Positions 19,398 through 40,569 of a DNA stretch of 64,000 nucleotides are shown here, in pieces (position 1 is the stretch's first letter; each line of letters opens with the position of its first letter). The notes under the pieces are model-generated. The model made no database searches. It saw only the letters and a list, made by a program, of their open reading frames with translations, and was not told the origin of the DNA. The stretch lies in NCBI RefSeq assembly GCF_009914755.1, contig NC_060930.1; one strand, given 5' to 3'. The stretch is from the human T2T-CHM13v2.0 reference genome, Homo sapiens. Made by a program: the position numbers and the translations under genes.

Positions 19398-19418
19398 ATG
19401 GCCGGCGACATTAGCTAG
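19398..19418 (+). CDS. AMD1: Regulatory uORF MAGDIS (polyamine-dependent arrest peptide)
   Basis: ATG GCC GGC GAC ATT AGC TAG near the cap site; established mammalian AdoMetDC uORF. Confidence 0.97.
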   Translation: MAGDIS

Positions 19419-37669: not shown

Positions 37670-38079
37670 GTAATTTTATATTTTATTATTAATCAGGTTA
37701 TTTGATTTTTAAAATCTTAAAGGAAATGAGACAGTGAGGCCTAAGATGTATTCTGAGATAGCACATATACCAGCCACTCAGATATCCAGAAGTAATATTG
37801 TTTGAGGTTACTGGTAGCTGAGAAGCTTTGTTTCATTAGACCTGTGTCAGTCCTTGTTTTCTGTCTAGCCAAACTGATGGGTTCCTCCTGTCTTGCTATT
37901 GACAGGCCTCTGGTGGGAGGAACCATAAGATGCCCTGGCCCCTCCAGCACATAAGAAGGCAGCTAAAATAACTCAGATGTCTTAGTTTCATTAAGATAAA
38001 AGTCTGTCACTTAACTGTTTTGGTTGAAAATACTTCTCTGGATTGCAAACACTAACGGTTATTTAATTTTTTCCCCCAG

Positions 38080-38220
38080 AGTTCTAAATGTCGCACAGTG
38101 CTTGCTTCGCCCCAGAAGATTGAAGGTTTTAAGCGTCTTGATTGCCAGAGTGCTATGTTCAATGATTACAATTTTGTTTTTACCAGTTTTGCTAAGAAGC
38201 AGCAACAACAGCAGAGTTGA
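38080..38220 (+). CDS. AMD1: AMD1 exon 9 coding part ([13 protein letters not shown]...[10 protein letters not shown])
   Basis: Branch-point-like CTAAC, CAG| acceptor, stop TGA 38218-38220. Confidence 0.97.
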
Positions 38221-38604
38221 TTAAGAAAAATGAAGAAAAAACGCAAAAAGAGAACACATGTAGAAGGTGGTGGATGCTTTCTAGATGTCGATGCTGGGGG
38301 CAGTGCTTTCCATAACCACCACTGTGTAGTTGCAGAAAGCCCTAGATGTAATGATAGTGTAATCATTTTGAATTGTATGCATTATTATATCAAGGAGTTA
38401 GATATCTTGCATGAATGCTCTCTTCTGTGTTTAGGTATTCTCTGCCACTCTTGCTGTGAAATTGAAGTGCATGTAGAAAAAACCTTTTACTATATGAAAC
38501 TTTACAACACTTGTGAAAGCAACTCAATTTGGTTTATGCACAGTGTAATATTTCTCCAAGTATCATCCAAAATTCCCCACAGACAAGGCTTTCGTCCTCA
38601 TTAG
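38221..38604 (+). other. AMD1: AMD1 in-frame stop-codon readthrough tail (127 codons + TAG)
   Basis: No in-frame stop for 381 nt after TGA in AT-rich 3'UTR; matches the published AMD1 tail. Confidence 0.85.
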
Positions 38605-38898
38605 GTGTTGGCCTCAGCCTAACCCTCTAGGACTGTTCTATTAAATTGCTGCCAGAATTTTACATCCAGTTACCTCCACTTTCTAGAACATATTCTTTAC
38701 TAATGTTATTGAAACCAATTTCTACTTCATACTGATGTTTTTGGAAACAGCAATTAAAGTTTTTCTTCCATGAGTTGAGTCCTTAAGAAAATGATTCCAG
38801 TTACTCATTTTGCATATTTGCTATTTTAACATTATTGGACCCTGCATTTATAGTCCTTTGATTTCTTCCCTCTCCCTGGTGTCTCCCCCAAGACCCCA

Positions 38899-38904
38899 AA
38901 TAAA
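38899..38904 (+). terminator. AMD1: Proximal poly(A) signal AATAAA (gives ~2.0 kb mRNA)
   Basis: AATAAA with downstream GT-rich element; fits the known short AMD1 mRNA. Confidence 0.7.
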
Positions 38905-40040
38905 GCAATACACTGTTAACACTGTGGGTTTATATACTAATTCTATACCCCAGATGGGGAATGGGGGAGATGGTCCCTGGGCTTAATATTCTTTAAAGGG
39001 CATGGGAATTTAGCCTCTCTTTTATTGTAATGTGCTCTTTTGGAAAATAGTTGGTTAGCAGGGAAGACCCAGAGTTGTAGATTGAGATTAGGGTGTACTG
39101 GCTGAACTGTGGAAAACATACAATTCTGTGTTCCTCAGTAAATGAGATTAGCGTCTAATGAGTAGCACCCCTTTACTAACTTAGTAGTAGTATAAAATCA
39201 TTTTTATTTAGTTAATTACCAGAGAGATTTAGCATAATTTTGTTCTGGATTCAGTAAATCAAGTCAGCTTGGATCATTCACCTTAACTTTTCCTTTAGCA
39301 GCCATTTCCACTAGTTTCCATTAAGTAGTGTTCTATAAACTTTGATCCAAAGCAGAATCAATGTCTTTTCCATCTCGTGACTTAAAGTTCTGTGACTGTG
39401 ATGCATGTGAGTGTTCCGACTTCATCTGTTCCTCTTAACTACGGTGTTTCCCTTACCATGGCATTCATAGGATGAAATGAATGACTGCCCAGAATGAGAA
39501 TTTGTCCAGATTATTCAGATAAACATCATAAAGCAGAATACATTATAAATAAGTAGAATATGAATAAATAGAATAATAAAATTCCAAAATACTCAATGGG
39601 AAATGACTAGTAATATAGGCTTTCAAGAGTTGGTACCTTTTAGCTATATTTGCAGATTCTCTGGGATTTTAAGGAACTGAGAAAACAGCAAAGTTGACTA
39701 AATTTTATATTTCTTGTCCTCTAAATATTTTGATAATTTCTGGATTGATGCAGTGATGTTTTTGTTCCTTCCGTATTTATAAATGAAACACCTTTTTTTA
39801 GTGTTTCTAAACCTAAAATCTACTTGGTTTGAAATCAAGTGGTTGGAACACTGTTTGACTTTTATTTGAAGCATGTTGTTGATTGAAAATTTCATTGAGG
39901 AAGTTTTCAATCAGTGTGATCAGTTTGATTCTGTAATGAGCACAGCACCTAATATTTTGAGGAGCTCTGTTTTGAGGACCAATGCTTAAGGTGGACTTTG
40001 TTCGTAAACAATATCCCAATAGATTTGTTGACTTGAGGTC

Positions 40041-40088
40041 TGGTTTGGTTTTGTTTTTGTTTTGTTTTGTTTTGTTTTGTTTTGTTTC
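40041..40088. repeat. (GTTTT)n microsatellite in AMD1 3'UTR
   Basis: Direct reading. Confidence 0.9.
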
Positions 40089-40288
40089 CAATAGAATTAA
40101 GAATTCTAATGTTGAAAAACTGCACAAATTTTTATGGGACAAAGCCTAGAAAAGAGAAATGTAGTTTGAATCATAATCTAAATCATCGTATGATAGAAGA
40201 GGGAAAGTTTTGGTGCCATAATTTCTCCTTTCACTGGTGTTGGACTTAAATCAGTTGAAATGTATTTCTGTACCACAATTTACGCTTC

Positions 40289-40294
40289 AATAAA
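40289..40294 (+). terminator. AMD1: Distal poly(A) signal AATAAA (gives ~3.4 kb mRNA)
   Basis: AATAAA with upstream TGTA motifs and downstream T/GT-rich tract; fits the known long mRNA. Confidence 0.8.
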
Positions 40295-40569
40295 AGTTTA
40301 ATTGTCTAGTGACATTCAGAAACTTTTCTGTTGCCCTGTTTTTTAAGTAGCCTACTTGACCAAATACTACATGTCTGAAGTTTAAAATCAATACAACAAT
40401 GTGTATTTATGAGTTTGGAGTTAGACAGAAGTTTAAAAGTGTTAGGTCCCAACCTTTATTATAGACTAGACTCTTAAAACATTGGTTGAGGATGATCAAA
40501 CTCAAATAAGTTTCCTTATTTCATTCATGGTTATTTCTATTAAGTAGAAAAAAATTTATAACCTTGATC

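What the first reader, a model, noticed from the sequence alone, without database searches (positions are those of the whole stretch)
38218..38604. AMD1 stop codon is followed by a 127-codon in-frame open tail (readthrough / ribosome-stall control element)
Seen: after ...CAG AGT TGA the frame stays open (TTA AGA AAA ATG AAG AAA AAA CGC ... GGC TTT CGT CCT CAT TAG), with the next in-frame stop ending 384 nt downstream. That is unlikely by chance in an AT-rich 3'UTR. The context UGA-UUA resembles the readthrough-permissive UGA-CUA. The extension is LRKMKKKRKKR... then a Cys/His-rich hydrophobic segment ending IPHRQGFRPH. Known: Yordanova et al. (Nature 2018) reported readthrough into this tail and stalling near its end, proposing a ribosome queue that caps proteins made per mRNA. 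As I recall, the queue interpretation was later questioned. Inference: together with the MAGDIS uORF, this mRNA carries stall elements at both ends of its CDS.
Basis: partly seen in the sequence, partly recalled or inferred. Interest (0 to 1): 0.85.

Follow-up and report, generated by a model that had tools for sequence, protein, structure and literature searches.

The report
AMD1 readthrough tail and ribosome-arrest peptide
The open frame after the AMD1 stop codon is real and far longer than chance allows, but it is the already published AMD1 C-tail, a readthrough extension whose last residues jam the ribosome at the next stop codon.

Summary
Observation confirmed. TGA at 38218-38220 is followed by 127 sense codons (38221-38601) and TAG at 38602-38604. 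None of 20,000 dinucleotide shuffles reached that length.

It is the published AMD1 C-tail. About 2% of ribosomes read through. A nascent-peptide arrest then traps eRF1 and ABCE1 at the second stop, using a Lys117/Arg121/Phe124 clamp and an Arg125 hook (PMC13025110). Tail residues 108-127 are identical to PDB chain 9q7q_1, named 'AMD1 C-tail'.

Evidence added here:
- All 8 independent human AMD1 retrocopies have a broken tail frame.
- 55 predicted ORFs in public assemblies, down to 39% identity and including a carp protein, match the tail. Of the 48 that cover its end, 38 stop at the same residue.

The ribosome-queue model has been weakened by its own authors (PMC8831848), by a proteasome/BAG6 degron study (bioRxiv 10.1101/2022.07.20.500724) and by the absence of queue footprints (PMC7089771).

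Novelty: already known. One point is open: a middle block (residues 60-86) is conserved almost as strongly as the arrest motif, and no passage I read explains its sequence-level conservation.

The parts
38218..38220 (+). AMD1 main stop codon TGA, read through at low frequency
   Evidence: Readthrough of about 2% is quoted in bioRxiv 10.1101/2022.07.20.500724. G418 raises the downstream peak (PMC7089771). 4 of 55 database ORFs carry the CDS end, then W, then the tail (P0014, P0019, P0021, P0036). I infer that a gene caller read a conserved TGA as Trp.
38221..38601 (+). AMD1 C-tail open frame, 127 sense codons
   Evidence: for length against chance. One search found 55 homologous predicted ORFs. 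One search showed that all 8 independent retrocopies are frame-broken.
38230..38253 (+). In-frame ATG (tail codon 4, 38230-38232) and basic cluster MKKKRKKR (residues 4-11)
   Evidence: Met4 is invariant in alignment A2 (34 sequences). 40 of 55 hits start at this Met. A gene caller needs a start codon, so this count is biased upward.
38398..38478 (+). Conserved middle block, residues 60-86 (LDILHECSLLCLGILCHSCCEIEVHVE), hydrophobic and Cys/His-rich
   Evidence: The mean top-residue frequency is 0.77 in 20 divergent ORFs, against 0.40 and 0.36 in the flanking linkers. H64, E82 and V85 are invariant, and C70, H76, C78, C79 and H84 are at least 90% conserved in A2. The hydropathy maximum lies at residues 65-79.
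38551..38601 (+). Arrest peptide, residues 111-127 (FLQVSSKIPHRQGFRPH). Lys117 is at 38569-38571, Arg121 at 38581-38583, Phe124 at 38590-38592 and the Arg125 hook at 38593-38595.
   Evidence: Residues 108-127 are identical to PDB 9q7q_1 'AMD1 C-tail'. Residue roles come from PMC13025110. Among the 48 hits covering the end, F124 is kept in 48, R121 in 44, R125 in 42 and K117 in 40.
38602..38604 (+). Second in-frame stop TAG, the stall site
   Evidence: 38 of 48 hits end exactly here. PMC13025110 reports the stall at this stop with eRF1 and ABCE1 trapped, regardless of stop identity or downstream RNA.
38753..38758 (+). Proximal poly(A) signal ATTAAA. A short mRNA isoform ends near 38773, about 170 nt after the stall site.
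   Evidence: for the signal. Retrocopy L002 turns into an A-run just after 38772, and L008 and L009 stop aligning at 38776 and 38770.
19398..19418 (+). MAGDIS uORF (ATG GCC GGC GAC ATT AGC TAG), the 5' stall element of the same mRNA
   Evidence: Its function is described in PMC13025110 and PMC10659439.

Best explanation
This is the AMD1 C-tail, a programmed readthrough-and-arrest element.

Shown in print:
- A small fraction of ribosomes (about 2%) decode the AMD1 UGA as sense and translate 127 further codons.
- The last residues of the nascent chain then lock the ribosome. Lys117, Arg121 and Phe124 clamp an rRNA base in the exit tunnel and compact the chain.
- Arg125 inserts into the peptidyl-transferase centre and blocks the eRF1 GGQ loop. 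The peptidyl-tRNA is therefore not hydrolysed at the TAG, and eRF1 and ABCE1 stay trapped.
- The stall is peptide-driven, not RNA-driven.
- In reporters, the extended protein does not accumulate, because hydrophobic parts of the tail send it to the BAG6/RNF126/proteasome route.

Inferred: selection across vertebrates keeps the frame open and keeps the arrest motif. The stall itself is therefore useful, most likely as a negative feedback on the individual mRNA. Whether that feedback acts through a ribosome queue, collision-triggered decay or something else is unresolved.
For: Anatomy is exact and beyond chance (0 of 20,000 shuffles).

Identity: residues 108-127 are identical to PDB 9q7q_1 'AMD1 C-tail'.

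Mechanism: the cryo-EM structure and alanine scan in PMC13025110 (Results and Discussion read). Stalling there was unaffected by changing the stop codon or adding 135 nt of downstream RNA. My folds agree: no unusual RNA stability at either stop (z 0.11 and -0.92) and no Rfam family above threshold.

Readthrough origin: G418 enlarges the footprint peak (PMC7089771).

Constraint, tested here:
- 8 of 8 independent human retrocopies carry frameshifting indels in the tail, and 6 of 8 also carry in-frame stops. This includes the copy that is 96% identical.
- In relative-rate tests the parent gene changed more slowly than the retrocopies in the tail (2:10, 7:20, 9:39, 10:30).
- Only 1 of 8 retrocopies keeps the CpG-containing Arg125 codon CGT, against 42 of 48 database ORFs with Arg there.
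- 55 predicted ORFs (39-94% identity) match the tail. 38 of the 48 covering the end stop at the same residue. Length differences are in-frame, and one hit is from the carp Cirrhinus molitorella (49 of 125 identical residues).

Degradation: proteasome inhibition cut the reporter loss from 19.4-fold to 1.9-fold, a P2A site rescued it, and BAG6, TRC35 and RNF126 were screen hits (preprint passages).
Against: - No footprint data could be examined here. Readthrough and in vivo stalling rest on papers, and the founding paper is not held.
- The database ORFs are biased. Only open frames get predicted, and the set mixes orthologues with decayed copies (P0025 and P0031 are frameshifted near the end). 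10 of 48 run past the second stop.
- The slower evolution of the parent is not specific to the tail. The 166 nt after it (2:5, 2:7, 5:15, 4:17) and the 5'UTR show it too.
- Synonymous changes are not significantly enriched on the parent branch (6 of 13 against 40 of 153, Fisher p 0.19).
- In cells, a tricistronic reporter showed most ribosomes passing through the tail. Deleting the last 21 codons did not rescue reporter loss, and knockouts of the RQC factors NEMF and LTN1 had no effect. The stall may therefore be transient in vivo.
- Lys117 is Leu in 6 of 48 ORFs, so the clamp is not universal.
Confidence: 0.9

Rival explanations
1. Degron only. The tail is one case of general readthrough mitigation. 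Its hydrophobic segments send the extended protein to BAG6/RNF126 and the proteasome, and the stall at the end is brief and has no regulatory output.
For: Preprint 10.1101/2022.07.20.500724, passages read:
- MG132 rescued the reporter loss from 19.4-fold to 1.9-fold.
- A P2A site between reporter and tail rescued it.
- Deleting three hydrophobic regions rescued it, while deleting the 21-codon pause signal did not.
- 17 of the 20 top CRISPR hits were proteasome subunits; the other three were BAG6, TRC35 and RNF126.

The tail has hydrophobic maxima at residues 47-57, 60-83 and 102-119.
Against: A generic hydrophobic degron would not need a 17-residue motif kept from fish to human (F124 in 48 of 48, Q113 in 48 of 48, R121 in 44 of 48), nor a stop kept at the same place (38 of 48). 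PMC13025110 reports footprint peaks at this site in most vertebrates with data. In a monocistronic vector the tail cut reporter output more than 10-fold, which its authors say exceeds what loss of the readthrough product alone would give (PMC8831848).
Confidence: 0.25
2. Ribosome-queue counter ('molecular memory'). Stalled ribosomes pile up along the 384-nt tail until the queue reaches the main stop and shuts the mRNA down. This would cap the number of proteins made per mRNA.
For: This is the original proposal as summarised in PMC8831848 and PMC7089771. The frame and roughly its length are kept across vertebrates: most hits are 115-137 residues. A spacer of set length would fit that. The more-than-10-fold monocistronic effect also fits.
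Against: - The authors state that the key titration test (their Fig. 3C) reflected the readthrough context plus the EMCV IRES, not the tail.
- No queue footprints appear upstream of the stall, even with G418.
- The P2A rescue and the roadblock reporter argue against a stable block.
- Linker regions vary in length by in-frame indels, so the length is not fixed.
Confidence: 0.1
3. Stall-triggered mRNA decay. A second readthrough ribosome collides with the stalled one and triggers no-go decay or ribosome quality control. The mRNA is then destroyed after a few readthrough events.
For: Suggested in PMC7089771: G418 raised the stall peak and AMD1 mRNA fell at 24 h. The trapped eRF1-ABCE1 state means the ribosome is not recycled normally.
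Against: Knockouts of NEMF and LTN1 did not change the tail reporter. G418 has many other effects. I read no direct measurement of endogenous mRNA half-life with a mutated arrest motif.
Confidence: 0.2
4. Entry by re-initiation. Some ribosomes enter the tail at the conserved in-frame AUG 9 nt after the stop (38230-38232) after terminating. They would make a free 124-residue peptide rather than extended AMD1.
For: Met4 is invariant in the 34-sequence alignment. It is kept in 6 of the 7 retrocopies that cover it and is disrupted by a deletion in L008. 40 of 55 ORFs start there.
Against: The count is inflated, because ORF callers need a start codon. Re-initiation after a 334-codon ORF is normally very inefficient (established knowledge). 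The G418 response supports readthrough. The Met may simply be part of the conserved basic motif.
Confidence: 0.05
5. Chance open frame in a 3'UTR with no function.
For: At about 1e-4 per gene, a couple of human genes could show such a frame by chance (inference).
Against: 0 of 20,000 shuffles reached this length. All 8 neutral retrocopies lost the frame. Open homologous frames ending in the same motif exist down to 39% identity. A solved structure of the stalled complex exists.
Confidence: 0.01

Closest known systems
AMD1 C-tail / 'AMD1 tail' (Yordanova et al. 2018, not held; Maldosevic et al. 2026, PMC13025110; PDB 9q7q)
   Same: It is this element: same gene, 127 codons, 384 nt between the stops, and clamp and hook residues at the published numbers.
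   Different: Nothing differs in sequence. One paper calls the frame '125-codon' (PMC8831848), whereas the window and the 2026 paper give 127.
MAGDIS uORF of the same mRNA
   Same: It is also a nascent-peptide arrest at a stop codon that lowers AMD1 output. It is present at 19398-19418.
   Different: It is six codons long, lies in the 5' leader, depends on polyamines, and blocks scanning or initiation. No trigger is known for the tail; PMC13025110 lists this as an open question.
XBP1u and hCMV uORF2 arrest peptides
   Same: These are mammalian arrest peptides that remodel the peptidyl-transferase centre, and PMC13025110 compares them directly. Like XBP1u as I recall it, the tail has a hydrophobic segment some 50 residues upstream of the arrest site.
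   Different: The tail takes a Z-shaped path and uses the clamp and hook. Its interactions are stated to be distinct from both. XBP1u stalls in elongation, whereas the tail stalls at a stop with eRF1 bound. The XBP1u geometry is recalled, not from a call.
Conserved human readthrough extensions (LDHB, AQP4, OPRL1; MAPK10, SACM1L)
   Same: These also show UGA readthrough into a conserved extension. MAPK10, SACM1L and EEF1A2 also show downstream stall peaks.
   Different: The LDHB, AQP4 and OPRL1 contexts give 2.5%, 6% and 17% readthrough. They use a CUAG context (recalled) that AMD1 lacks, since it has UUAA. No sequence motif is shared among the stall sites.
General readthrough mitigation by C-terminal hydrophobicity (BAG6 pathway)
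   Same: The tail was the model substrate, and BAG6 binds its hydrophobic regions.
   Different: Typical substrates are unconserved 3'UTR translations. This tail is conserved in three blocks.

Membership tests
AMD1 C-tail readthrough-arrest element | In-frame open extension of 127 codons between the AMD1 UGA and the next stop | tested here: met
   0 of 20,000 shuffles were as long.
AMD1 C-tail readthrough-arrest element | C-terminal arrest motif with Lys117, Arg121, Phe124 and Arg125 | tested here: met
   All four residues sit at the published numbers. Residues 108-127 are identical to PDB 9q7q_1.
AMD1 C-tail readthrough-arrest element | Open frame and arrest motif conserved across vertebrates | tested here: met
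   55 predicted ORFs at 39-94% identity match the tail, one from a cyprinid fish. 38 of the 48 covering the end stop at the same residue. Caveats: only open frames are predicted, most sources are unnamed, and no orthologue DNA was available.
AMD1 C-tail readthrough-arrest element | Ribosome footprint peak at the second stop, arising from readthrough | not testable with these tools
   Reported in PMC13025110 and PMC7089771. No profiling data were available here.
UGA-CUAG readthrough context (motif recalled) | CUAG immediately after the UGA | tested here: not met
   The window has UGA UUA A, which matches 2 of 4 positions.
RNA-structure-stimulated readthrough or stalling | Unusually stable structure just 3' of the stop | tested here: not met
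   Folding z-scores were 0.11 (38212-38340) and -0.92 (38540-38680). No Rfam family reached threshold. The stall is independent of downstream RNA.
Folded protein domain | Pfam match or a confident predicted fold | tested here: not met
   Pfam gave 0 families. The AlphaFold2 model built with 34 sequences had mean pLDDT 39 and pTM 0.19.

The most novel reading that the evidence does not exclude
The stall may exist to display the conserved middle block (residues 60-86, 38398-38478).

This block is conserved almost as strongly as the arrest motif: 0.77 against 0.85, with linkers at 0.36-0.40. With the ribosome held at the TAG and roughly 40 residues buried in the tunnel, the hydrophobic, Cys/His-rich block would sit just outside the exit port. 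That layout resembles XBP1u as I recall it, where a pause exposes a hydrophobic segment to a targeting factor. The block could recruit a factor such as BAG6/SGTA, SRP or an unknown partner to the stalled mRNA-ribosome complex and so decide the fate of that mRNA.

The cryo-EM construct held only residues 78-127, so it lacked most of the block. The degron study treats the hydrophobic regions as redundant, which does not explain conservation at the level of individual residues.
Probability: 0.12. Interest if true: 0.6.

Novelty: already known. Interest (0 to 1): 0.2.

Why it matters
AMD1 sets the flow into spermidine and spermine, and its mRNA carries nascent-peptide stall sites on both sides of the coding region. 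The tail is the best-characterised case of readthrough followed by programmed arrest in a human mRNA. For this scan, the value is that a reader working from raw sequence recovered a genuine, experimentally verified recoding element, together with the correct caveat about its proposed function. What the stall does for the cell remains open. The strongly conserved middle block is a concrete place to look for an answer.

Tried and rejected
- RNA-level explanations. Folds around both stops were no more stable than shuffles. The Rfam scan of 37900-40500 gave only a mir-1814 match at 20.7 bits against a gathering score of 90 (E 0.42), which I treat as chance.
- Domain explanations. Pfam found nothing. 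AlphaFold2 with a 34-sequence alignment gave mean pLDDT 39, so I made no fold search. There is no support for a zinc-binding or other autonomous fold in the Cys/His block.
- Codon-level selection from retrocopies. Synonymous enrichment on the parent branch was not significant (6 of 13 against 40 of 153, p 0.19). Two of the 13 inferred parent changes (38260, 38594) are artefacts of repeated CpG decay in the retrocopies. The slower parent rate is shared by the flanking UTR, so this test does not show coding constraint specific to the tail.
- Parent-branch changes do cluster in codons 1-40 (9 of 13, against 37 of 153 in retrocopies, Fisher p 0.0014).
- L004 was dropped from all counts because it duplicates L003 (X and Y copies).
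- The original Nature 2018 paper could not be read.
- The first shuffle script timed out. I reran it on the first 600 nt only.
- PMC9841425 mentions AMD1 only in its reference list.
- Supplementary figures of PMC13025110 (vertebrate profiles, alignment) were not examined.

Full report
**1. The observation**

The last coding exon of AMD1 (38080-38220) translates to ...[10 protein letters not shown] and ends in TGA at 38218-38220. The same frame then stays open for 127 codons (38221-38601), from LRKMKKKRKKRTHVEGGG to KIPHRQGFRPH, up to TAG at 38602-38604.

The stretch is A+T-rich, at 63%. The other two frames of the same 381 nt hold 12 and 9 stops. The next-longest open run in frame 0 of the 2102-nt 3'UTR is 57 codons. 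The composition-based chance of 127 stop-free codons is about 1e-4. None of 20,000 dinucleotide-preserving shuffles of the first 600 nt reached 127 codons (median 7, maximum 125).

At genome scale, 1e-4 per gene still allows a couple of chance cases (my inference). Length alone is therefore not decisive.

**2. What it is**

A literature search shows that the element is published. I read the abstract, Introduction, Results and Discussion of Maldosevic et al., Sci Adv 2026 (PMC13025110). They report the following.

- In reticulocyte lysate the chain stays on the P-site tRNA.
- The cryo-EM structure shows eRF1 and ABCE1 trapped.
- Phe124, Arg121 and Lys117 clamp rRNA base A3908 and compact the chain.
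- Arg125 inserts into the peptidyl-transferase centre and keeps the eRF1 GGQ glutamine about 8 Å from its active position.
- Alanine substitution of the clamp residues or of Arg125 releases the chain.
[quoted passage not shown] Adding 135 nt of native downstream RNA does not change the stalled product either.

In the window these residues sit at exactly those numbers: K117 at 38569-38571, R121 at 38581-38583, F124 at 38590-38592 and R125 at 38593-38595. Tail residues 108-127 are identical to PDB chain 9q7q_1, deposited as 'AMD1 C-tail'.

The stall is peptide-driven, and my RNA checks agree. RNA folds around both stops are no more stable than shuffles (z 0.11 and -0.92), and no Rfam family reaches threshold. 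The tail has no Pfam match and no confident predicted fold (mean pLDDT 39).

**3. Independent evidence: retrocopies as a neutral control**

The human assembly holds nine further copies of this region. They align to a spliced model of the mRNA across exon junctions, so they are processed retrocopies. L003 and L004 are X/Y duplicates, which leaves eight independent copies.

- All 8 carry frameshifting indels inside the tail, and 6 of 8 also carry stops in the parental frame. The youngest copy (96% identical in the tail) already has two 1-nt insertions and a TAA at codon 39.
- In relative-rate tests, with the older copies as outgroup, the parent gene changed less than the retrocopy in the tail (2:10, 7:20, 9:39, 10:30).
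- The parent changes cluster in codons 1-40 (9 of 13, against 37 of 153 for retrocopies; Fisher p 0.0014).
- The CpG-containing Arg125 codon CGT survives in only 1 of the 8 retrocopies.

Results against a tail-specific reading:
- The 166 nt after the tail and the 5'UTR are also slow in the parent.
- Synonymous enrichment is not significant (6 of 13 against 40 of 153, p 0.19).
- Two of the 13 inferred parent changes are CpG artefacts.

**4. Independent evidence: homologous ORFs in public assemblies**

A protein search with the tail returned 55 hits at E ≤ 0.001 among 59 candidates, at 39-94% identity. Most are 115-137 residues and come from unnamed assemblies. One is a hypothetical protein of the cyprinid Cirrhinus molitorella, with 49 of 125 residues identical.

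- Of the 48 hits that cover the C-terminus, 38 end at the residue matching His127.
- F124 and Q113 are kept in 48 of 48, L112 in 47, R121 in 44, R125 in 42 and K117 in 40. K117 is Leu in 6.
- Four hits (P0014, P0019, P0021, P0036) carry the CDS end, then W, then the tail. I read this as a conserved TGA translated as Trp by a gene caller.

In the 20 most divergent hits, conservation falls into three blocks. Residues 4-11 score 0.68, residues 60-86 score 0.77 and residues 111-127 score 0.85. The linkers between them score 0.40 and 0.36 and vary by in-frame indels.

Caveats:
- Only open frames are ever predicted, so the absence of stops is partly built into this set.
- The set mixes orthologues with decayed copies. 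P0025 and P0031 are frameshifted near the end.
- 10 of 48 run past the second stop.
- No orthologue DNA was available.

**5. What the stall does**

I know it only from papers that cite it, because the 2018 paper is not held.

Its authors later reported that the key titration experiment (their Fig. 3C) reflected the readthrough context together with an EMCV IRES, not the tail. In a monocistronic vector the tail still cut reporter output more than 10-fold (PMC8831848; abstract, Introduction, one Results section and Conclusions read).

Wangen and Green saw the stall peak rise with G418 but found no queue footprints. They suggested no-go decay instead (PMC7089771, passages).

The preprint 10.1101/2022.07.20.500724 (passages read) reports:
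- Near-complete rescue by MG132 (19.4-fold to 1.9-fold) and by a P2A site.
- No rescue on deleting the last 21 codons.
- Only about a 2-fold effect in a roadblock reporter.
- Proteasome subunits, BAG6, TRC35 and RNF126 as screen hits, with no effect of NEMF or LTN1.

[quoted passage not shown] It lists the trigger for stalling and the rescue of stalled ribosomes as open questions.

My reading is that readthrough and peptide arrest are established, and that degradation of the product is shown in reporters. Deep conservation of the arrest motif and of the stop position argues that the stall itself is selected. Its output (queue, collision-triggered decay or factor recruitment) is unresolved.

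**6. Comparison and novelty**

This is the known element itself, not a relative, so the rating is 'already known'.

It lacks the CUAG context of the high-efficiency readthrough genes. That motif is recalled; the window has UUAA.

One paper gives the frame as 125 codons. The window and the 2026 paper give 127.

**7. What remains interesting**

The middle block LDILHECSLLCLGILCHSCCEIEVHVE (38398-38478) is conserved almost as well as the arrest motif. Most of it was absent from the cryo-EM construct, which held residues 78-127. It would lie just outside the tunnel exit of a ribosome stalled at the TAG.

That suggests the stall may display the block to a binding factor. I rate this at about 0.12 probability. 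The structure prediction gave no confident fold for the block.

Noticed in passing
L002-L010 (own genome); window 38080-38914: The human assembly holds eight independent processed retrocopies of AMD1 mRNA, plus an X/Y duplicate pair. None aligns beyond window 38914, although about 1.3-1.5 kb more flank was held for each. They therefore all derive from short-3'UTR isoforms, not from the annotated 2.1-kb 3'UTR.
   Followed up: partly
window 38753-38758 and 38899-38904: There are two proximal poly(A) signals. ATTAAA at 38753 is followed by the A-run of L002 at about 38773 and by the alignment ends of L008 and L009. AATAAA at 38899 matches the end of L005 at about 38914. In the shortest isoform the stall site lies only about 170 nt from the poly(A) tail.
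   Followed up: partly
window 38398-38478: The middle block of the tail (residues 60-86) is nearly as conserved as the arrest motif. H64, E82 and V85 are invariant and C70, H76, C78, C79 and H84 are at least 90% conserved in 34 sequences. No paper passage I read explains this sequence-level conservation. AlphaFold2 gives no confident fold for it.
   Followed up: partly
window 38230-38232: An in-frame ATG lies 9 nt after the main stop and is invariant in the 34-sequence alignment. 40 of 55 predicted ORFs start there. Because ORF callers need a start codon, the count is biased.
   Followed up: no
P0011, P0012, P0013, P0016, P0018, P0025, P0026, P0034, P0038, P0046: 10 of the 48 tail homologues that cover the end run past the position of the second stop, several with Gln at that position. 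I could not tell whether they are retrocopies or lineages in which the stop has moved.
   Followed up: no
window 38593-38595: The Arg125 'hook' codon is CGT, which contains a hypermutable CpG. 6 of 8 retrocopies have changed it (three His, plus Cys, Tyr and Leu) and one has deleted it. The gene itself keeps it.
   Followed up: yes
window 19398-19418: The MAGDIS uORF starts 11 nt after the annotated exon start (19387), so it lies very close to the cap.
   Followed up: no
literature: PMC8831848 calls the tail a '125-codon' ORF. The window and PMC13025110 give 127 codons and 384 nt.
   Followed up: yes
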